In this document: one piece after another, positions 517-51,532 of the stretch | How positions within the stretch are numbered: the stretch's first letter is position 1 | Layout of the letters: each line of letters opens with the position of its first letter | Source of the DNA: Vicinamibacterales bacterium | GTDB lineage: Bacteria; Acidobacteriota; Vicinamibacteria; Vicinamibacterales; UBA8438 | Assembly: GCA_965220695.1 (NCBI GenBank) | Contig: OZ244838.1 | Span: 3,395,293 to 3,459,292, forward strand | Length of the DNA: 64,000 nt | Direction: 5' to 3' | Translations under genes and position numbers: made by a program | Notes under the pieces: generated by a model | Databases searched by the model: none | What the model was told of the DNA's origin: nothing | Seen by the model: the letters and a program-made list of their open reading frames with translations, nothing else

Positions 517-660
517 CTCCGTCTCAGTATTGTCCCGCATAGCGGGTGACAACCTGCCTCAGGCAACACCTGCGCCCCCGCCCGCATGCTCCTTCGCCGC
601 ACCTGAATCCAAGAGGCTCGTCGCCACTCTCGGTGCGACGCGGCGTGTTGCTGCGGGCGG
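517..660 (-). repeat. diverged copy of the same element filling the rpsE-rpmD spacer
   Basis: The right end ctcggtgcgacgcggcgtgttgctgcgggcgg|ctag aligns with the family right TIR and abuts the rpsE TAG. Internal catgctccttcgcc box. Left TIR not recognisable. Confidence 0.5.
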
Positions 661-1173: not shown

Positions 1174-1187
1174 AAGGCCGTTCCTGG

Positions 1188-1356
1188 CAGCCCGTGGCAA
1201 AAGCCCCGCTGCATTCGGTCGACGCTGCATCCCGCCGACCCGTGTTGTTCATCGGTTGCATACCGCCGGCATGGTCCCTCTTTTCGCCTTACGTTGACCG
1301 GACGCGGCATCATTACAACCAAAGCTCGGTGCAACGCGGGGTTCCACCACGGGCTG
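1188..1356 (-). mobile_element. MITE-like TIR element, near-intact copy (169 bp) between rplR stop and rpsE RBS
   Basis: Ends cagcccgtggcaaaagccccgctgcattcgg ... ctcggtgcaacgcggggttccaccacgggctg are inverted repeats. Flanked by ctgg (left) and ctag (right; its TAG is the rplR stop). Shares internal boxes with 14741-14922 and 44747-44944. Confidence 0.8.
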
Positions 1357-1731: not shown

Positions 1732-1765
1732 CACACGTTCCAACCGCCACGTAAGGAGCAACTAC

Positions 1766-1910
1766 TCATGGCACCAAGCCTGCGACATTGGCCGGGCGCA
1801 GCGTCCGCGTTGCACGACATTGTTCCAAGGTCAATTGCGCCCGAAATGCTCCCTCTTCTCACCTCCCGCACCGCCGATCTCGATCCGGCGCGGGGTTCTG
1901 CCACGGTCTG
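1766..1910 (-). repeat. diverged full-length copy between rplF stop and rplR
   Basis: Right end gatctcgatccggcgcggggttctgccacggtctg|ctat abuts the rplF TAG. Internal aatgctccctcttc box. Weak left TIR tcatggcaccaagcctgcgacattgg preceded by ctac. Confidence 0.6.
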
Positions 1911-3121: not shown

Positions 3122-3204
3122 CACTGTCCTCGTTACCATCCCTACCAGGCTTCTCCCGGAGGGACGAGCCTGAGCGCCGTTGTGAACCCACTGGCGGCCT
3201 GGCA

Positions 3205-3250
3205 CAGCGCCGATCACGGTGCCACCCGCGGTTCCCCCCCCCACGGACTG
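3205..3250 (-). repeat. right-TIR fragment of the element after rplE stop (contains a C9/G9 run)
   Basis: gccgatcacggtgccacccgcggttcccccccccacggactg|ctag aligns with the family right TIR. Its TAG is the rplE stop. Confidence 0.5.
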
Positions 3251-3793
3251 CTAGTTCGTTCGGAACGGCATCCCCATCAACTGGAGCAGCCGCCGCCCTT
3301 CCTCGTCCGTCCTGGCAGTCGTGACCACAGAAATATTCATACCGCGCGACTTGTCGACCTTCATGTAGTCGATCTCGATGAACATCAACTGGTCACGGAG
3401 CCCGAGAGTGTAGTTCCCACGTCCGTCGAACCCTTTGGGCGACACACCCCGAAAGTCGCGCACTCGCGGAAGCGCGATCGAGATCAACCGGTCAAGGAAT
3501 TCGTACATCCGGTCTCGACGCAGCGTGACGACGGCGCCTATGGGCATGCCCTGCCGCACTTTGAATTGCGCCACCGACTTTCGCGCGCGGGTGGTCAACG
3601 GCTTCTGACCGGTGATTCGGGCCAGATCGTCGCTCCCCGCGTCAATCAGCTTCCCGTTTTGCGTCGCCTCGCCCAGCCCCATGTTCACTACGATCCGCTG
3701 AACCTTCGGCACCGCCATCACGTTGGTGTACCGAAATTCCTTCGTGAGGGCGGGCACGACCGTTTCTTGATACCGCTCTTTCAATCGGCTCAT
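3251..3793 (-). CDS. rplE: 50S ribosomal protein L5
   Basis: ORF-track 180 aa, [20 protein letters not shown]...MGMPFRTN. Confidence 0.95.
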
Positions 3794-5477: not shown

Positions 5478-5590
5478 GACGAAGTACCCTCAAGTGCGAT
5501 CATCGTCCGATCGGGTGCGGCGTCGATACCGACCACACCACCGATCTCGGTGCGACGCGGGGTTTCACCACGGGCTGCTACCACAGGCTG
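5478..5590 (-). repeat. truncated copy (stop-proximal TIR plus SD-like box) filling the rpsC-rplP spacer
   Basis: gatctcggtgcgacgcggggtttcaccacgggctg|cta, then an extra 10-nt tip ccacaggctg before the rpsC TGA. In operon sense, GAGATCGGTGGTG...TTGAGGGTACTTCGTC-ATG(rplP) matches the interior of other copies. Confidence 0.6.
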
Positions 5591-9984: not shown

Positions 9985-11179
<1,195 letters not shown>

Positions 11180-11192
11180 GCGATAGCCTCTG

Positions 11193-13286
11193 TTACCTTC
11201 CCTGAATCCGCGCCACGATCTCCTCACTCACCACCTGTGGGACTCGCTTGTAGCGATCGAAATTCATGGTGTACGTTGCGCGCCCCTGTGTCCGCGACCT
11301 CAGTTCAGTGGCATAGCCGAACATCTCCGCGAGAGGTACGCGGGCGTTCACGATCTGCGTACTGCCGTGCGCTTCCATCGAAAGCACTTTGCCGCGGCGG
11401 CTGTTGAGGTCGGCCATGATGTCGCCCATGTGCACCTCGGGTACAACCACTTCGACCTTCATGATCGGCTCGAGCAGCACCGGCCCCGCAGTCCGCGCCG
11501 CTTGACGAAAGGCCATCGATCCGGCGATCTTGAACGCCATCTCGGACGAGTCCACGTCATGGGACGAACCGTCGTACAGCGTCACCGTCACATCTTCGAT
11601 CGGATACCCGGCCAATACGCCGGTCGTGAGCGCCTCCCGGATACCGGCTTCGATCGAACTGATGAACTCCCTCGGCACCGCGCCACCGAAAATCTCGTTC
11701 TTGAAGACGAAGCCGTCTCCTGGCACGACACGGATCTTGACGTGCCCGTATTGCCCTCGCCCGCCGGTCTGCTTGACATACCGTCCTTCGGCCGCGGATG
11801 GTCTGGTCAACGTTTCCCGGTAGGCGACCTGCGGCCGCCCGACGGTGGCTTCGACGTCGAATTCCCGCCGCAATCGATCGACGATGATCTCGAGATGCAG
11901 TTCGCCCATCCCGGAGATGACCACCTGCCCGGTCTCGTCGTCGGTACGAACCTGAAACGTCGGATCCTCGCTGGTCAGCTTCGCGAGCCCCTGCCCGAGC
12001 TTCTCCTGGTCGACCTTGGTCTTTGGCTCGATAGCCAGCGTGATGACGGGTTTTGGAAACTCCATCGTCTCCAGCACCACCGGGTGCTGGTGGTCGCAAA
12101 TCGTATCCCCTGTCGCCACACTCTTGAGCCCGACCGCAGCCGCGATGTCGCCTGAATAGACTTGCCGGATCTCCTCGCGCTTGTCGGCATGCATCTTCAG
12201 CAACCGACCGATCCTCTCCTTGCGGCGGAGACGCGGGTTGTAGATGGTGGCGCCAGACGCCAGCACCCCGGAATAGACACGGATAAAGGCGAGCTGACCG
12301 ACGTAGGGGTCAGTCACTATCTTGAAGGCCAACGCCGAAAACGGCGTTGTGTCCGCGCACGGACGCTCGAGTCGGGTGTCCACGTCACCCGGATCGCTAC
12401 CGCTCACGGCCGGCACATCCAGCGGCGACGGCAGATAATCGATCACCGCGCCGATCAACGGTTGCACGCCCTTGTTTTTGAACGCACTGCCACACAGTAC
12501 CGGTACGAAGGGAACGTCCTCCTCGCGCACTGACTCAACGGTGCGGCGCCGCAACGTCGCGATGATTTCCGCTTCTTCGATCGGCGTGCCGTGCAGATAC
12601 TTCTCAAGCAGCCGATCGTCGACTTCGCAGACCTTCTCTACCAGCAGTTCGCGAGCCGCCATGGCAGCGTCCATGCGGTCCGCCGGAATGTCCTCCACGG
12701 TCGATCCGGCTCCCAGTGTCTCGTCATGGTAACGAACGGCCTTCATGCGCACGAGGTCTATGACCCCGACGAATTCGTCCTCGTCCCTGATTGGAAGCTG
12801 AATCGCCACCGGGTTACCTTGAAGCTTCTCGCGAATCTGCGTCAGGGTGCGATTGAAATCTGCGCCGACGCGGTCCATCTTGTTGACGAAACAGATCCGT
12901 GGCACACGATATTTGTCAGCCTGTCGCCACACGGTCTCCGACTGCGGCTCCACGCCCCCCACCGCATCGAATACTGCCACGGCGCCGTCCAACACCCGCA
13001 ACGATCGCTCGACCTCCGCGGTGAAGTCGACATGCCCAGGGGTATCGATGATGTTTATTCGATGATCACGCCACATGCACGTCGTGGCGGCAGAGGTGAT
13101 GGTGATGCCCCGCTCCTGCTCCTGCTCCATCCAGTCCATCACCGCAGTGCCCTCATGCACCTCGCCGATCTTGTAGGTGATGCCCGTATAGAACAGGACG
13201 CGCTCGGTGATGGTCGTCTTGCCGGCATCAATGTGAGCCATGATGCCAATATTGCGCGTCTGCTCCAGCGCCACCTGTCTCGGCAT
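11193..13286 (-). CDS. fusA: elongation factor G
   Basis: ORF 11193..13370. Start set to ATG 13286 ([25 protein letters not shown]...). DTPGHVDF and NKMDR present. Confidence 0.95.
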
Positions 13287-14740: not shown

Positions 14741-14922
14741 CAGCACGCGATGAAAGCCCCGCAGCATTCGCTCGGCGCTGCATCCCGCAAAGAGCGTCGC
14801 TGGGCGTCTGATCGCCGAGGGCACACACGTCCCAATGCGCTCCCTCTTCGTGCCGTGCACTGGCCGGGCGCGACGTTATGACGAACAGATCTCGGTGCAC
14901 CGCGGGGTTTCACCACAGGCTG
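14741..14922 (-). mobile_element. MITE-like TIR element, near-intact copy (182 bp) immediately after rpoC stop
   Basis: cagcacgcgatgaaagccccgcagcattcg ... ctcggtgcaccgcggggtttcaccacaggctg. Flanks ctgg / ctat (its TAG is the rpoC stop). Internal gctgcatcccgc and gctccctcttcg boxes shared with the other copies. Confidence 0.8.
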
Positions 14923-27062: not shown

Positions 27063-28257
<1,195 letters not shown>

Positions 28258-43478: not shown

Positions 43479-44681
43479 GTGGACATGCGTGCGTTCCTTG
43501 ACGCCGACGACGGCGAACCCACGCTGGAAACGGCGGCGTATGCGGCACTTCTGGCCTTCGTCGTTGCGCTGCAGATTTCGATTGCAGCCTCTGGCATCCT
43601 GCTGACCATTACTCTCGGATGCTGGATCGGCCTGCTCATCACCCGCAATGAGCGTCCGTCGGCACCACCCTTCTTCGTGGCGCTGCTGATCTACGCGGTG
43701 CTGACCCTCGTCTCGGTGGCGTTCTCGCTCGACCCCGGAATAAGCATCGTCGACTCGAAGGAGGTACTGCTGTTTCTCGTGGTACCGGTCGTGTTCCGAC
43801 TAGCCAGTGGTCGGCGAGCTCAAACGGTGGCGACGGTTATCGTCACCGTGGGTGCCGCCAGCGCCGTGTTCGGCGTGGTGCAGTACGGCATCTTCGAGTA
43901 CGACAACCTGGGCCAGCGCCCCTCCGGTTCGATGGGGCACTACATGACATACTCCGGCCTGCTTGTGCTGGTGCTCGCGCTGGCGGGGGCGCGGCTCCTG
44001 TTCGACACGAAGGAGCGCATCTGGTCCCTTCTGGTCATGCCGGCGCTGCTGGTCGCCCTGGCGCTCACGTTCACCCGCAGCTACTGGATCGGCGCCGGCG
44101 CCGCACTCAGTCTGCTATTCGTGTTGCGAGATTTCAGGCTGCTCGCGGTGATTCCGGTGCTGGCGGCACTGTTCCTCGTGCTTGCACCGCCGCAGATCAC
44201 GGCCCGCTTCTACTCCACCTTCGACCCGCAGGACCCGACCGCCAGAGATCGGTTCGCCATGGCCCGATCTGGAATCCGGATCATCCGTGACCATCCGATT
44301 ACCGGCGTCGGTCCCGACATGGTCAAGGAGGTGTATCCCGACTATCGCGACGCCGGCGCAGTGCAGGACGAAAACCCGCACCTGCACAACGTGCCGCTGC
44401 AGATCGCAGCCGAACGCGGTCTGGCCGCCCTTGCCTCGTGGCTCGTCTTCTTGTGCCTGCTGCTGCGCGACCTGTTCCGTCTGTTTCGCAACGACCACAC
44501 GCGGCCACTGGCGGCGGCAGGTCTGGCCGCGGTGACAGGGATGCTGACCGGCGGGTTGTTCGAATACAACTTCGGTGATTCGGAATTCCTGATGTTGTTC
44601 CTGGTGATCGCGACTCTGCCACTGGCCGCGGCCCAAGACCGGGAATCCCTGCCGGCTGCCGCCGACCGCGCCGTCACGTAG
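43479..44681 (+). CDS. O-antigen ligase (Wzy_C) family polytopic membrane protein
   Basis: ORF-track 400 aa (GTG start). About 10 hydrophobic segments; ...FTRSYWIGAGAAL... and NPHLHNVPLQIAAERG motifs typical of the family. Confidence 0.75.
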   Translation: MDMRAFLDADDGEPTLETAAYAALLAFVVALQISIAASGILLTITLGCWIGLLITRNERPSAPPFFVALLIYAVLTLVSVAFSLDPGISIVDSKEVLLFLVVPVVFRLASGRRAQTVATVIVTVGAASAVFGVVQYGIFEYDNLGQRPSGSMGHYMTYSGLLVLVLALAGARLLFDTKERIWSLLVMPALLVALALTFTRSYWIGAGAALSLLFVLRDFRLLAVIPVLAALFLVLAPPQITARFYSTFDPQDPTARDRFAMARSGIRIIRDHPITGVGPDMVKEVYPDYRDAGAVQDENPHLHNVPLQIAAERGLAALASWLVFLCLLLRDLFRLFRNDHTRPLAAAGLAAVTGMLTGGLFEYNFGDSEFLMLFLVIATLPLAAAQDRESLPAAADRAVT

Positions 44682-44746
44682 CTCGCCGGACGCGGGAGCC
44701 GACCTCGTCCCCACCACCAGACACCCCCCAGCGGGTGTGCGGCTAG

Positions 44747-44944
44747 CAGCCCGTGGTGAAAGCCCCACTGCATTCGATCCCCGCTGAATTCTGCGCTTCC
44801 CCGCGGAATTCTGCTGTTTCACGCTGCATCCCGCGTGGCGGCGTTGCTCCTCGGTCACAAATGCCCCAATTTGCTCCCTCGTCGCGCCTTGCCACGCGGG
44901 CGCAGCGCCAATCTCGGTGCAACGCGGGGTTTCACCACGGGCTG
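44747..44944 (-). mobile_element. MITE-like TIR element, best-preserved copy (198 bp), flanked by CTAG on both sides
   Basis: The terminal 15 nt are perfect inverted repeats (cagcccgtggtgaaa / tttcaccacgggctg). ctag at 44743-44746 and 44945-44948 (the latter holds the purH TAG stop). Carries two extra tandem 20-mers at 44779-44818. Confidence 0.85.
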
Positions 44945-46561
44945 CTAGTGCCTGAAGTGCCGGCGCCCGGTGAACACCATGGCGATGCCGTGCTCATTCG
45001 CGGCGTTGATCACCTCCTCGTCGCGAACGGAGCCACCGGGCTGAACAACCGCTTTGGCGCCAGCCGAGGCAATGGCATCGAGGCCGTCCCGGAACGGAAA
45101 AAACGCGTCCGACGCGGCGGCCGTACCGGACAGGCCGGTTGTCGCCTTCATGACAGCCACATTGACTGCGTCGACCCGACTCATCTGACCGGCACCGATC
45201 GCAGCCAGCCTGTCCGCGGTGGCAAAGACAATCGCATTCGACTTGACGTGCGCGCAGACCCGCCACGCCATGCGCAACGCCGCCCACTCCTCGCCGGTCG
45301 GCTGCCGGGTGGTGACGACCCGGCGATCATCTCCGGCGGCAGTCTGGCCCACGCGGCCCCACGCAGACGCCGCTTCGGTCACCCGATCGTAGCGCTGGAC
45401 GAGAATCGCCCCCAGGATGGAGCGCACTTCCCGGAACATCGGCAGATCCGACGCGCCGTTCCGGCAGTCCGCCAGGACCACGCGCAGGTTCTTCTTCGTC
45501 GTGAACACCGCACGGGCTTCCACGTCGGCGTCTGGTGCGACTACCGCTTCGATGAAGGTCGACGTGATCTCCCTGGCCGTGTCACGGTCGATCGGGCGAT
45601 TCAGACCTACGATGCCGCCAAACGCCGACAGCGGATCAACCTCGCGCGCGGCCACGTAAGCCTCGCGCAGCGACGGCGCGGTGGCCACTCCGCATGGATT
45701 CATGTGCTTCACTACAACCGCTGCCGGCTCTTCGAACTCGCTGATCAGCCTCGCCGCCGCGTCGAGATCCAGCAGATTCGTGAACGAGAGCTCCTTCCCC
45801 TGCACGACCTCGGCGCCGCCGAACCCCCGCGGGCCGGCGCCATACATGGCCGCAATCTGGTGCGGATTCTCGCCATACCGCAAGCGGCGTTGCCGCACCG
45901 CTTCCAGAACCAGCGTGTCGGGGACCAGCTCATCGGAGGACGAGGTCCCGCGTGAGAAGACACCGTCGTTGACCTCAACCTCGGACAGGGCCCTCGAAAT
46001 CATGGCGTCGTAGGACCGGGTGTGCGAGAACGCCTTGATCGCCAGCGACAACCGGAACTCGGCAGTGGGTCCTCCGGCCCGGTCGAGTTGTTCCATCGTG
46101 CTGCGATAGTCCGCCGGCTCAACCACCACAAGCACATGCTGGAAGTTCTTGGCGGCGGCGCGGACGAGCGTCGGTCCTCCGATGTCAATCTCTTCGACAA
46201 GCGCCTCGACAGTCGTGTCGGGATCGGCAGCGGCCTGCGCGAACGGGTAGAGATTGACGACGACGATGTCGATCGGCTCGATGCCACGGGCTCCGATTGC
46301 CTCCAGATCGCCCTGGCGATCGCGGCGCGCGAGAATGCCGCCGTGTACCGCCGGGTGCAAGGTCTTCACCCTCCCATCCAACATCTCAGGAAACCCGGTG
46401 ACAGAGGACACGGGGGTCACCGGGAGCCCTGCCCGGGCCAGGATTCGCGCGGTGCCACCGGTCGACACGAGTTCGTATCCGCGGGCCTCCAACCCTCGCG
46501 CGAATTCGACGAGATCCGATTTGTCCGACACACTCAACAATGCTCGCATCCGCTCGCTCAC
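44945..46561 (-). CDS. purH: bifunctional AICAR transformylase / IMP cyclohydrolase
   Basis: ORF-track 538 aa, ...[18 protein letters not shown]...GGTA...[12 protein letters not shown]..., ends [12 protein letters not shown] 46561 preceded by GGGAGGAG. Confidence 0.95.
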
Positions 46562-47274: not shown

Positions 47275-47330
47275 CAGCCCGCGGCAGCAGCCCCACTGCA
47301 TGCGCCCAGTGCTGCGCGCGGTTTTATCAC
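47275..47330 (-). repeat. left-TIR fragment upstream of selA
   Basis: cagcccgcggcagcagccccactgcatgcg aligns with cagcccgtggtgaaagccccactgcattcg. Downstream part diverged. Confidence 0.4.
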
Positions 47331-48802: not shown

Positions 48803-48985
48803 GGCCACGGGCCGTCCAGGCGTTCGGATTCGAGGCCGGAACCGTTCCAGGGACCCGAGCAGGTGACGCGCAGGAACGTCGCCGCGTCCCGCGCCACCTC
48901 GTTGCGCATGCCCAGGGCCAACTGATACACACCGAACCCTGTGGGTATGTGTCGCGCAGACTCCGCACTGGTCGGCAGCTCTTGG

Positions 48986-50260: not shown

Positions 50261-51532
50261 TTAACCGAAATCGTCGAACAGGATATTCTCGGGTTCCACT
50301 CCGATCGAGTCGAGCATGTTCATGCAGGCCTTGAGCATCATTGGTGGGCCGCACAGGTAGTACTCGATGTCTTCAGGCGCCCGGTGCGTCGCGAGATAAT
50401 TGTCGAACACGACCTGATGGATGAAGCCGGTATAGCCGGACCACTTGTCCTCCGGCAACGGCTCGGACAACGCCAGGTGCCACGCGAAATTCTCGTGCTC
50501 ATTCGCGATGGTATCGAAATCGTCGAGGTAGAACGCCTCGCGCAAACTGCGCGCACCATACCAGTACGACACTTTTCGGGAGGTTCCCAGCCGCCGGAAC
50601 TGGTCGAAGATGTGAGACCGCATCGGCGCCATGCCGGCGCCGCCGCCAATGAATATCATCTCGGCTTCGCTCTCCTTCGCAAAAAACTCGCCGAACGGCC
50701 CTGAGATGGTCACGTCGTCGCCCGGCTTCAGGTCGAAGATGTACGAGCTCATCTTCCCCGGCGGCGTCCCTTCCGGCGCCCGCGGCGGTGGCGAAGCCAC
50801 CCGTATGTTGAGAATGATGACGCCACGTTCCTCCGGATAGTTCGCCATCGAGAACGCACGGGTCACCGGTTCTTCGATCGTCGACACGTAGCGCCAAAGA
50901 TTGAATTTATCCCAGTCGGCGCGATACTCCTCGTCGATGTCGAAATCGGCGTAGTTCACGGTACCCGGCGGTGCTTCGATCTGGATGTAGCCTCCCGCAC
51001 GGAACGGCACCGACTCCCCCTCAGGCAGCACGAGTACGAGTTCCTTGATGAAGGTGGCGACGTTGTTGTTCGACCGCACCCTGCAGCGCCACTGCTTGAC
51101 CGTGAACACCTCGGGCGGCAGTTCGATCTCCATGTCCTGTTTCACCTTGACCTGACAGGACAGGCGTTGTCCGTTGCGCGCCTCGCCGCGCGAGATGTGA
51201 CTCAACTCCGTGGGCAGAATCACGCCGCCGCCGTCACGCACCGTGACCGTGCAGACACCGCAACTACCCTTCCCGCCGCAAGCCGACGGAATGAAGATAC
51301 GGTTCGACGCCAAGGTGCCGAGCAGGGTCCCGCCGGCACTGGTGCAGAGGGCCTTGTCCGGATCGCCGTTGACGGTGATGGTCACGTCGCCGGTGGCCAC
51401 GAGCTGCCGCCGGGCAAGCATCAGCAATCCCACCAGCGCCACGACGGTGAACGTGAACATGCCGACACCCAGCAGGACGGTGGTCACAACGGTGAACGTG
51501 AACATGCCGACACCCAGCAGGACGGTGGTCAC
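50261..51532 (-). CDS. nqrF: Na+-translocating NADH-quinone reductase subunit F (N-terminal TM segment duplicated)
   Basis: ORF 50261..51679. GTG 51532 overlaps the nqrE stop (GTGA). 2Fe-2S motif [12 protein letters not shown]; [12 protein letters not shown] motif. Confidence 0.9.

What the first reader, a model, noticed from the sequence alone, without database searches (positions are those of the whole stretch)
44743..44948. Best-preserved copy: CTAG on both flanks, perfect 15-bp termini, subterminal direct repeats, at a convergent gene junction
Seen: ggCTAG|CAGCCCGTGGTGAAA ... TTTCACCACGGGCTG|CTAGtg. The flanks fit either a 4-bp CTAG duplication (IS5-like) or a TA duplication inside CTAG (IS630-like, in which case the element would start with G). 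Inside the left end the motif CCCC(A/G)C(T/G)G(C/A)ATTC occurs three times (44764-, 44779-, 44799-). The last two are a tandem 20-mer pair (17/20 identical, each containing GAATTC) that is absent from the 169-bp copy. Inference: subterminal repeats are what transposase-binding sites typically look like. The clean flanks suggest a recent insertion. The element lies between the convergent O-antigen-ligase-family gene and purH, and it supplies or retains the purH TAG.
Basis: partly seen in the sequence, partly recalled or inferred. Interest (0 to 1): 0.7.

Follow-up and report, generated by a model that had tools for sequence, protein, structure and literature searches.

The report
Recently inserted MITE at purH stop codon
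This is a 198-bp non-coding jumping element from a large, apparently undescribed family in Vicinamibacterales soil bacteria; it landed very recently on the CTAG that holds the purH stop codon, duplicating those four bases so the gene stays intact.

Summary
Window 44747-44944 is a 198-bp element with perfect 15-nt inverted termini, flanked by CTAG on both sides, between a Wzy_C gene and purH.

- A genome 99.7% identical over this locus has the clean empty site GGCA-CTAG-CCGCACA.
- A second near-identical genome carries a different 225-bp variant at the same CTAG.
- The 89%-PurH relative is also empty.

Across about 110 loci from Vicinamibacterales MAGs, the family (usually 158 bp) has 4-bp direct target duplications. 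CTAG is strongly preferred, but CTAT, ATAG, TGTA, TCCA and TCGT also occur. This fits the IS5-type YTAR rule and refutes the TA (IS630) reading.

CTAG is 12-fold depleted in the window, and many of the CTAGs outside genes sit at C-TAG stop codons. That explains why copies abut stop codons.

The three "subterminal repeats" are a subfamily-specific tandem duplication that folds into a side hairpin. They are not a general family feature.

Unexpectedly, the interior is a long hairpin with strong compensatory covariation, and copies at stop codons favour one orientation.

No parent transposase was found.

Verdict: a new member of a known kind, of moderate interest.

The parts
44747..44944 (-). The MITE itself, 198 bp. 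The family's A-to-B orientation is on the minus strand, the same sense as purH.
   Evidence: covariance-model hit of 90 bits on the minus strand. It is absent from the orthologous site in L195, L192 and L194.
44743..44746 (.). Target-site duplication, copy 1 (CTAG), next to the B end.
   Evidence: The empty alleles have a single CTAG. The family-wide 4-bp duplication is shown.
44945..44948 (.). Target-site duplication, copy 2 (CTAG), next to the A end. CTA at 44945-44947 is the purH TAG stop on the minus strand.
44930..44944 (-). A-end terminal inverted repeat, CAGCCCGTGGTGAAA. It continues imperfectly as CCCCGCGTTGCACCGAGA.
44747..44761 (+). B-end terminal inverted repeat, CAGCCCGTGGTGAAA. 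It continues as GCCCCACTGCATTCGA.
44763..44775 (+). It is part of the near-invariant GAATGCAGCGGGG segment of the family.
   Evidence: Invariant columns of alignment A1.
44779..44818 (+). Two tandem 20-mers (17/20 identical, each with GAATTC). This is a subfamily-specific duplication of the B-arm box. The two copies pair with each other to form a side hairpin.
   Evidence: A terminator-like match on the + strand is no more than chance.
44830..44900 (-). Core of the hairpin. The inner stem is CCCGCGTGGC (44830-39) paired with GCCACGCGGG (44891-900). The apex stem-loop is CAAAT/ATTTG at about 44858-44873.
   Evidence: These pairs covary across the family.
44945..46561 (-). purH. Its stop codon lies in the duplicated CTAG.
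   Evidence: The C-terminus ...RHFRH* is conserved in all orthologues.
43479..44681 (+). Wzy_C (O-antigen ligase family) gene, convergent with purH.
   Evidence: The synteny is kept in L192, L194, L195 and L196.
44721..44738 (.). Native small hairpin ACACCC..GGGTGT in the original 61-nt spacer. It is present in the empty alleles too, so it is not part of the element.
1188..1356 (-). 169-bp family copy between rplR and rpsE, with flanks CTGG and CTAG.
   Evidence: (100 bits).
14741..14922 (-). Degenerate copy directly after the stop codon of the rpoC-like 1399-codon ORF.
   Evidence: 33 bits.
1762..1910 (-). Degenerate copy directly after the rplF stop codon.
   Evidence: (26.7 bits; no residual fold, z = 0).
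578..660 (-). Short degenerate copy after the rpsE stop codon.
   Evidence: (19.5 bits).
5541..5577 (-). Truncated A end only (35/37 identical to the family), 10 nt downstream of the rpsC TGA.
3201..3250 (-). A-end remnant abutting the rplE TAG. The CTAG is at 3251-3254.
47275..47304 (+). B-end remnant upstream of purH, flanked by CCGG.
   Evidence: L112 and L113 have full copies at a comparable distance upstream of purH; orthology was not verified.

Best explanation
Window 44747-44944 is a non-autonomous DNA transposon (MITE) of a large family found mainly in Vicinamibacterales (Acidobacteriota).

Shown:
- It has 15-19-nt terminal inverted repeats (CAGCCCGTGGTGAAA).
- It has two distinguishable arms, A and B.
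- It encodes no protein.
- It inserts with a 4-bp target duplication that strongly prefers CTAG.
- This copy entered the CTAG formed by the last base of the purH His codon plus the TAG stop. The duplication left purH with its own stop codon, so the insertion is harmless to the protein.
- The insertion is very recent. It is polymorphic among genomes about 99.6% identical at this locus.

Inferred:
- Mobilisation is in trans, by a DDE transposase with IS5-type (YTAR, 4 bp) target behaviour that was not found here.
- Copies pile up at stop codons because CTAG is about 12-fold depleted in this GC-rich genome. Many of the CTAGs that are not inside genes are C-TAG stop codons.
- The whole element folds into one long imperfect hairpin whose interior pairs covary. 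That structure is probably maintained by selection on the element lineage, either for mobility or for being tolerated when co-transcribed. It is probably not maintained by the host at each site, because old copies in the window lose the fold.
- In this copy the extra 40 nt (two 20-mers) add a side hairpin.
For: Empty and occupied alleles:
- L195 (99.65-99.70% nt identity over purH and wzy) reads GGCACTAGCCGCACACC. The window has the same flanks with CTAG[198 bp]CTAG.
- L192/L193 (PurH 89%) and L194 (80%) are also empty.
- L196 (99.55% identity) has a 225-bp variant at the same CTAG.

Target duplication:
- Of 70 complete copies, 25 have CTAG/CTAG.
- 18 further copies have other identical direct 4-mers, including non-palindromic and TA-less ones: CTAT, ATAG, TGTA, ATAA, TCCA, TCGT, CGCG, CCAG, CTGG, TTGA, TTAG, CTAA.
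- The flank logo shows specificity only at the 4 bp.
- IS5 duplicates YTAR (PMC5009759).

Copy number and distribution:
- More than 111 genome loci hold the exact 19-mer, nearly all of them Vicinamibacterales MAGs.
- The covariance model finds more than 90 copies in these loci.
- Among 80 purH loci, it finds copies only in the two with PurH at 78-79% identity.

Recent activity:
- The window copy is 97% identical to L088:7466-7663 in another species' genome, which has a TTAA duplication.
- L192 has a copy after selA that the window lacks.
- L003 holds tandem arrays.

CTAG scarcity: 17 observed against 213 expected, and 5 of the 17 flank elements.

Structure:
- 54 pairs, 96.8% of cells paired.
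- 25 pairs have double-sided changes against 12.5 +/- 1.8 in shuffles (0 of 500 shuffles reach this).
- Slid controls score 0.052 or less against 0.255 observed.

Decay of the fold in old copies: z = -3.6, -1.5, 0.0 and +0.2.
Against: - No autonomous element with these termini was found in 1.48 Mb of held loci, in plasmids or in viral contigs. The transposase family is therefore inferred from target behaviour alone.
- The only candidate is a Planctomycetota repeat that shares the 22-nt terminus and starts an ORF (MALGKRKPLEQPLFIAF). It is cut by contig ends after 17 codons.
Young copies are therefore over-represented.
- A purely selfish reading does not explain the orientation bias at stop codons (A end 19, B end 6) or the strand asymmetry in fold energy.
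- The origin of the L196 allele is unresolved. Its A half is 100% identical to the window copy and its B half is different. It could be an independent insertion or a recombination.
Confidence: 0.85

Rival explanations
1. The hairpin is an RNA-level module kept by the host. Co-transcribed in the sense (A-to-B) orientation after stop codons and between cistrons, it would protect or process mRNA 3' ends, as REP, ERIC and Correia elements do. On this reading the element is a mobile, partly domesticated 3'-UTR structure.
For: - Interior covariation includes isolated pairs next to conserved asymmetric loops: 68/105 CG<->UA and 71/102 CG<->GC<->AU.
- The A-to-B strand folds better in 39 of 40 copies, mean -97.2 against -88.6 kcal/mol.
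- G-U outnumbers A-C 135 to 15 on the A-to-B structure.
- The A end lies on the stop codon 19 times against 6 for the B end in the loci, p = 0.015.
- All 6-8 copies in the window are sense to their genes.
- Orientation of neighbouring copies is not uniform along the chromosome, so it does not follow replication direction.
- There is precedent: RNase III and RNase E effects of Correia and ERIC elements (PMC10969869).
Against: - Old copies in the ribosomal-protein operons have lost the fold (z about 0), so there is no sign of in-situ maintenance.
- With pairs taken from both strands' predictions, G-U against A-C is only 136 against 100.
- Co-directional sense against antisense is 19 against 12, not significant.
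- The gene calls behind these counts are crude.
- There are no expression data.
Confidence: 0.25
2. The hairpin is required for transposition itself. A 158-bp duplex is too stiff to bring its two ends together, so a cruciform or a single-strand hairpin would pair the two termini. Covariation would then reflect selection among element lineages for mobility, not any host function.
For: - Covariation is seen between subfamilies, that is, between active lineages, while immobile old copies decay.
- The termini (helix 1) are sequence-conserved, with only one-sided G-U changes, as expected for protein-bound ends.
- Very short derivatives of 56-89 bp keep arm-to-arm pairing: L025, L066, L031, L095.
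Against: - No DDE transposase of the IS5 type is known (to my knowledge) to need a hairpinned substrate.
- Strand asymmetry and orientation bias relative to genes are not predicted by this reading.
- It cannot be tested with these tools.
Confidence: 0.3
3. It is an IS630/Tc1-type MITE that duplicates TA inside CTAG and begins with G.
For: This copy alone fits it: C-TA-[G...C]-TA-G.
Against: - 4-bp direct duplications lacking a central TA occur: TCCA, TCGT, CGCG, CCAG, CTGG, TTGA.
- Non-palindromic duplications occur where position 4 varies together on both sides: CTAT/CTAT, CTAA/CTAA, TTAA/TTAA.
Confidence: 0.02
4. It is a REP/REPIN-type palindromic repeat moved by a RAYT (Y1) transposase, or a fixed structured RNA gene, rather than a cut-and-paste element.
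For: It is a long palindromic repeat with compensatory changes, intergenic and multi-copy.
Against: - There are variable 4-bp direct target duplications and a clean empty site.
- There is no GTAG or CGTC head.
- No Rfam family matches, even at E <= 10.
Confidence: 0.02
5. It acts as a bidirectional transcription terminator for the convergent Wzy_C gene and purH.
For: - It is a very stable hairpin (-115 kcal/mol) between convergent genes.
- One terminator-like site lies on the + strand at 44786-44811, formed by the two 20-mers.
Against: - There is no T/U tract after the main stem.
- The scan result is within chance: 2 found against 0.6 +/- 0.8.
- The empty alleles already have their own spacer hairpin.
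- Sister copies sit inside the spc and rpoBC operons, where termination would be harmful.
Confidence: 0.08

Closest known systems
IS5-group insertion sequences and their MITE derivatives (4-bp YTAR target duplication)
   Same: A 4-bp direct duplication with consensus C-T-A-G, plus CTAA, TTAG and TTAA variants, exactly the YTAR rule reported for IS5 (PMC5009759). It has terminal inverted repeats of about 15 nt. Tandem arrays arise by re-insertion into the duplicated CTAG (L003).
   Different: No IS5-family transposase or full-length IS with these termini was found. The termini (CAGCCCGTGGTGAAA) do not resemble the IS5 ends as I recall them. Non-YTAR duplications also occur (TCCA, TCGT, CGCG).
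Correia elements (NEMIS/CREE) of Neisseria
   Same: A MITE of about 100-200 bp with long inverted termini, hundreds of copies, often co-transcribed with neighbouring genes. It folds into a hairpin that RNase III cleaves (PMC10969869). Size variants arise by internal indels.
   Different: Correia elements duplicate TA and occur in Betaproteobacteria. No processing, promoter or IHF site was tested here. There is no sequence similarity.
ERIC/IRU elements of enterobacteria and Yersinia
   Same: An imperfect palindrome of about 127 bp in transcribed intergenic regions. Its effects on mRNA stability depend on orientation (PMC10969869).
   Different: ERIC elements lack clear target duplications and present-day mobility. 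The element here shows strain-level insertion polymorphism.
Chunjie MITE of Geobacter uraniireducens
   Same: A recently active MITE with size variants and partial copies, inserted within an operon without disrupting it (PMC10969869). This parallels the copies between rplF, rplR, rpsE and after rpoC.
   Different: It is an unrelated sequence in an unrelated host. I did not check its target rule.
REP/REPIN elements with RAYT transposases
   Same: Palindromic intergenic repeats whose hairpins show compensatory changes.
   Different: REPINs have no target duplication and carry GTAG or CGTC heads (PMC3733652 title and abstract). Both features were tested here and not met.

Membership tests
MITE (generic definition) | Small size (under about 500 bp) and no coding capacity | tested here: met
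   Copies are 158-226 bp. No conserved ORF exists, and the only ATG in the consensus is followed at once by TGA.
MITE (generic definition) | Terminal inverted repeats | tested here: met
   This copy has a perfect 15/15 repeat. The family consensus is CAGCCCGTGGTGAAA at both ends.
MITE (generic definition) | Target-site duplication of fixed length | tested here: met
   The duplication is 4 bp. 43 of 70 complete copies have identical flanks, with 19 different 4-mers.
MITE (generic definition) | Many copies at unrelated loci, with presence/absence polymorphism | tested here: met
   More than 111 loci hold the terminus. Empty sites are in L195, L192 and L194. The reverse case lies after selA in L192.
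MITE (generic definition) | An autonomous partner IS with the same termini | tested here: inconclusive
   None was found in the held sequence. A truncated candidate lies at Planctomycetota contig ends, L038/L085.
IS5 family (IS5 group) derivative | 4-bp duplication of YTAR | tested here: met
   Flank frequencies are C 0.75, T 0.85, A 0.76, G 0.80. The reference rule is in PMC5009759.
IS5 family (IS5 group) derivative | Termini matching those of a DDE_Tnp_1-type IS5-family element | tested here: inconclusive
ISfinder was not available.
IS630/Tc1-mariner derivative | TA duplication | tested here: not met
   Duplications without TA occur, and position 1/4 co-varies on both flanks.
REP/REPIN (RAYT-associated) | No target duplication, and a conserved GTAG or CGTC head | tested here: not met
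   Variable direct 4-mers flank the copies and there is no GTAG head.
IS200/IS605-type palindrome-associated elements | Insertion 3' of a fixed tetra- or pentanucleotide, without duplication and without inverted termini | tested here: not met
   Inverted termini and duplications are present.
Any Rfam RNA family | Covariance-model match | tested here: not met
   Only tRNAs reach gathering score in the window. On 44650-45050 nothing is better than E = 0.59.
Intrinsic terminator | GC-rich stem followed by a U tract | tested here: not met
   The main stem is followed by CUAG plus non-U sequence. The scan result is within chance.

The most novel reading that the evidence does not exclude
The family is a mobile structured-RNA module rather than transposon debris. 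Its roughly 110-nt core hairpin covaries and also occurs with different termini, for example GGTTTYMGGGCG.../...CGCTCCGRAAAC in L015 and L112. The core would be the selected cargo. Delivered in sense orientation onto TAG stop codons, it would shape mRNA 3' ends or operon processing in Vicinamibacterales. Alternatively, the hairpin would be an obligatory substrate of a transposase that works on folded DNA.
Probability: 0.2. Interest if true: 0.7.

Novelty: new member of a known kind. Interest (0 to 1): 0.5.

Why it matters
- It documents a currently active transposon family in Vicinamibacterales, an abundant but almost uncultured soil lineage. Three alleles of one site (empty, 198 bp, 225 bp) occur among genomes about 99.6% identical.
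- The family gives a ready strain-typing and population-genetic marker.
- It is a warning for annotation: repeated 150-200-nt inserts sit after stop codons, even inside ribosomal-protein and rpoBC operons.
- It is a clean natural example of how a CTAG-seeking element is channelled onto TAG stop codons in a genome where CTAG is 12-fold depleted.
- The strong interior covariation and the orientation bias make it a good test system for a long-standing question: are MITE hairpins selected for mobility or for an RNA role?

Tried and rejected
- **Parent IS, by paired termini.** I looked for termini with up to 2 mismatches, 400-5000 bp apart, in 111 loci. Only L036 1900-5595 qualified. It is a run of tandem short copies next to an ordinary 859-codon ORF.
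- **Parent IS, by neighbouring ORFs.** ORFs next to solitary ends gave nothing transposase-like. The L015 ORF between an end and a core copy looks like an ordinary secreted protein by eye; it was not scanned against any family library.
- **Parent IS, by homology.** tblastn with E. coli IS5 InsH found no hit.
- **Other collections.** The viral contig scan found 0 hits. Plasmid blastn with the MITE found no match, and with the candidate IS end found only a chance 35-nt Klebsiella match.
- **Source genome.** Exact look-ups of the window's PurH (both the window translation and P0001) and S5 returned 'not on record'. The r-protein-operon copies could therefore not be compared between strains.
- **G-U against A-C as proof of an RNA strand.** The 135:15 ratio shrinks to 136:100 once pairs predicted on the opposite strand are added. 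I treat it as suggestive only.
- **Replication-direction explanation for orientation.** Rejected, because neighbouring copies within 8 kb are as often opposite as alike.
- **Possible remnant at the 24673 CTAG (ggactgCTAG).** There is no further similarity, so I dropped it.
- **Literature.** Searches for Acidobacteria or Vicinamibacter MITEs found nothing specific.
Full report
**1. Observation**

The window reads ggCTAG|CAGCCCGTGGTGAAA ... TTTCACCACGGGCTG|CTAGtg at 44743-44948.
- The termini are a perfect 15/15 inverted repeat.
- The 15-mer, allowing up to 3 mismatches, occurs 9 times in the window against 1.9 expected; 0 of 100 shuffles reach that number.
- The three CCCC(A/G)C(T/G)G(C/A)ATTC boxes are at 44763, 44779 and 44799.
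- The last two boxes head a 17/20-identical tandem pair of 20-mers, each with GAATTC.
- The flanking genes are a Wzy_C-family gene (43479-44681, +) and purH (44945-46561, -).
- The purH TAG is the CTA of the right-hand CTAG.

Every factual statement of the finding holds.

**2. Other copies in the window**

BLAST, repeat finding and a covariance model built later find further copies:
- full or degenerate copies at 1188-1356, 14741-14922, 1762-1910 and 578-660;
- truncated ends at 5541-5577, 3201-3250 and 47275-47304.

All are on the minus strand. That is the sense strand of the genes they follow: rplR/rpsE, the rpoC-like ORF, rplF, rpsE, rpsC, rplE. In most of them the end I call A (CAGCCCGTGGTGAAACCCCGCGTYGCACCGAGA) sits directly on the TAG of the upstream gene.

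**3. The family**

- Nearly all are Vicinamibacterales or other Acidobacteriota MAGs.
- A few are Bryobacterales, Thermoanaerobaculia, Myxococcota, Planctomycetota and Longimicrobiales.

The elements have two different arms:
- A, as given above;
- B, CAGCCCGTGGTGAAAGCCCCGCTGCATTCGA.

Of 70 complete copies, 40 are 157-159 bp long. Longer subfamilies (about 176, 198 and 225 bp) and short deletion derivatives (56-89 bp) also exist.

Among 80 purH loci pulled from metagenomes, the model hits only the two with PurH at 78-79% identity, and none at 63% or below. The family is therefore lineage-restricted.

No Rfam family matches, and I found no paper on it.

**4. Target duplication**

- CTAG flanks 55 of 123 A ends and 41 of 90 B ends. 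The other flanks are mostly one-step variants.
- The decisive point comes from the complete copies. Besides 25 CTAG/CTAG pairs, there are identical direct 4-mers that are neither palindromic nor TA-centred: CTAT/CTAT (x2), ATAG/ATAG (x2), TGTA, ATAA, TCCA, TCGT, TTGA, TTAG, CTAA, TTAA, CGCG, CCAG (x2) and CTGG (x2).
- This is a genuine 4-bp target-site duplication, not an extension of the inverted repeat and not a TA duplication.
- Specificity is confined to those four positions.
- It matches the 5'-YTAR-3' 4-bp rule measured for IS5 (PMC5009759).
- L003 holds three head-to-tail copies separated by 4 bp. That is expected if new copies re-enter the duplicated target.

**5. Empty site and age of this copy**

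PurH homologues gave the orthologous junction in relatives.

| Locus | Similarity to the window | State of the site |
|---|---|---|
| L195 | 99.65-99.70% nt over purH and the Wzy_C gene | ...CACTTCAGGCACTAGCCGCACACCCGCTGGGGGGTGTC..., the window's flanks with one CTAG and no element |
| L192/L193 | PurH 89% | empty |
| L194 | PurH 80% | empty |
| L196 | 99.55% nt | same CTAG occupied by a 225-bp variant |
| L113 | PurH 79% | a decayed copy with its A end on the same TAG |
| L112 | PurH 78% | TGA stop, followed by the family core in the opposite orientation with other termini |

- The first 99 nt of the L196 variant are 100% identical to the window copy. The remainder is of the L007 type (92% identical to L007:2217-2441).
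- The purH TAG therefore pre-existed and was kept by the duplication.
- The insertion is a strain-level polymorphism.
- The site has been hit more than once.
- The window copy is 97% identical to a copy in another species' genome, L088, which has a TTAA duplication.
- L192 carries a copy after selA that the window lacks.

**6. Why stop codons**

- CTAG occurs 17 times in the 64-kb window against 213 expected from base composition. TTAA, CTAA and TTAG are similarly rare.
- Five of the 17 flank elements. Of the other CTAGs outside my crude gene calls, one (24673) is itself a C-TAG stop.
- In the loci, 25 of 70 elements have an end exactly on the stop codon of a called gene. 29 lie between convergent genes and only 10 between divergent ones.
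- I infer the following. A CTAG-seeking element in a CTAG-poor genome is channelled to stop codons. The duplication regenerates the stop, so such insertions survive.

**7. Structure**

- An alignment of 40 canonical copies (A1) folds into one long imperfect hairpin of 54 pairs.
- 96.8% of cells are paired.
- 25 pairs show changes on both sides against 12.5 +/- 1.8 in column shuffles (0 of 500 shuffles reach this).
- The covariation score is 0.255, against 0.104 in shuffles and 0.052 or less when the partners are slid.
- The terminal helix (the inverted termini) varies only by one-sided G-U changes.
- The covariation is in the interior. Examples are the apex stem CATAT/ATATG <-> CCTCT/AGAGG <-> AATAC/GTATT, and the isolated pairs 68/105 and 71/102 beside conserved asymmetric loops.
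- A simple 'foldback of one IS end' origin cannot give conserved asymmetry together with covariation. The fold is therefore under selection at some level.

**8. Which level of selection?**

For an RNA or sense-strand role:
- The A-to-B strand folds better in 39 of 40 copies, mean -97.2 against -88.6 kcal/mol, and the alifold energies are -80.9 against -44.6.
- G-U outnumbers A-C 135 to 15 on that structure.
- The end on a stop codon is A 19 times and B 6 times, p = 0.015.
- All window copies are sense to their genes.
- Neighbouring copies are not uniformly oriented, so replication direction is not the cause.

Against a host-level role:
- The G-U excess largely disappears when pairs predicted on the other strand are added, 136 against 100.
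- Co-directional sense against antisense is 19 against 12, not significant.
- The old copies in the spc and S10 operons have lost the fold: z = 0.0 and +0.2, against -8.5 for the young copy.

My reading is that the hairpin is maintained in the propagating lineages, for mobility or for tolerability when transcribed. It is not maintained by the host at each locus. A real RNA effect of young copies is not excluded.

**9. The 'subterminal repeats'**

- Canonical members have one copy of the B-arm box. It is part of the near-invariant GAATGCAGCGGGG segment.
- The two extra 20-mers occur only in the roughly 198-bp subfamily: L088 and L013, partly in L065, and diverged in L108.
- In the predicted fold they pair with each other through their GAATTC cores. 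This makes a side hairpin on an otherwise unchanged main stem.
- They are a tolerated tandem duplication, not a general array of binding sites.
- The terminator-like match they create on the + strand is within chance.

**10. The missing transposase**

- No long element with these termini and no IS5-like ORF is present in the 1.48 Mb held.
- Viral contigs and plasmids have nothing.
- One lead remains. In a Planctomycetota MAG, two contigs end 126 nt inside an identical repeat. The repeat starts CTAA/CTAG|CAGCCCGTGGTGAAACCCCT and, after a GGAGGA box, opens an ORF MALGKRKPLEQPLFIAF....
- It looks like the start of an IS, but it is too short to classify.

**11. Verdict**

This is a real, recently inserted MITE of a large undescribed Vicinamibacterales family with IS5-type target behaviour.
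- The main interpretation is right: a CTAG duplication, a recent insertion and a retained stop codon.
- The TA alternative is refuted.
- The binding-site reading of the repeats is not supported.

The kind of element is known, so novelty is 'new member of a known kind'. Interest is moderate, for three reasons: the three-allele strain polymorphism, the stop-codon channelling, and the unusually clear interior covariation with orientation bias.

Noticed in passing
L015:5037-5150 and L112:5606-5719: A 'core-only' relative of the family, about 113 nt long. It has the same covarying central hairpin (GCATCCCG.CTGGCGGCGTTGCTTCCTCGGTCACAGCCCGCCTGGCTGCTCCCTCGTCGCGCCTGGCCAGCCGGGCGCC) but different short inverted ends (GGTTTYMGGGCG / CGCTCCGRAAAC) and no CAGCCCGTGG termini. 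The two copies are nearly identical, lie at unrelated loci in different organisms, and both sit right after a stop codon.
   Followed up: partly
L196:3118-3342 versus window 44747-44944: Two genomes about 99.5% identical carry different element variants (225 bp and 198 bp) at the same CTAG. The first 99 nt are 100% identical and the rest unrelated in layout. This could be an independent insertion or a recombination between copies. The 225-bp form contains an extra 42-nt palindromic insert (TAAGCGGATCGGCAGGTTTCCATGCCGATCCGCCCACTGTAG).
   Followed up: partly
Flanks of copies in L001-L111 and window 1184-1187: The commonest non-CTAG flanks are CTGG and CCAG, often on one side only and opposite a CTAG. 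This looks like decay of CTAG by single transitions. It may be related to the strong CTAG depletion (17 observed against 213 expected), while CCAG is above expectation (476 against 406).
   Followed up: partly
L003:5726-6201: Three head-to-tail copies at 162-bp spacing, separated by 4 bp (CTGC). L036 and L080 also have adjacent copies.
   Followed up: partly
L038:7387-7513 and L085:1-124: In a Planctomycetota MAG, two contigs end inside an identical repeat. It starts with the family terminus, is flanked by CTAA or CTAG, and opens an ORF MALGKRKPLEQPLFIAF after a GGAGGA box. It is a possible autonomous IS cut by assembly.
   Followed up: partly
L192:469-644 versus window 48803-48900: The 89%-PurH relative has a family copy (CTGG/CCAG flanks, sense to selA) downstream of selA. 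The window has none there.
   Followed up: yes
window 47275-47304; L112:2629-2790; L113:2669-2840: A B-end remnant lies about 0.7 kb upstream of purH in the window. Full copies lie about 1.2 kb upstream of purH in both 78-79% relatives. This may be an old shared insertion.
   Followed up: no
window 9985-10284 and 27063-27362: Two 300-nt stretches are 100% identical. The first lies inside a 411-codon minus-strand ORF (9988-11223) that I take to be tuf, so this is probably a duplicated tuf gene kept identical.
   Followed up: no
window 51440-51529: A 45-nt unit is repeated twice in tandem at 98% identity.
   Followed up: no
window 44816-44872 (+) and the family consensus: The sense (A-to-B) strand carries two Shine-Dalgarno-like boxes (GAGGGAG, GAGGAG) inside the hairpin. 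The opposite strand therefore carries CUCCCUC/CUCCUC. This gave a weak, non-significant Rfam hit to CcsR1 (E = 0.59).
   Followed up: no
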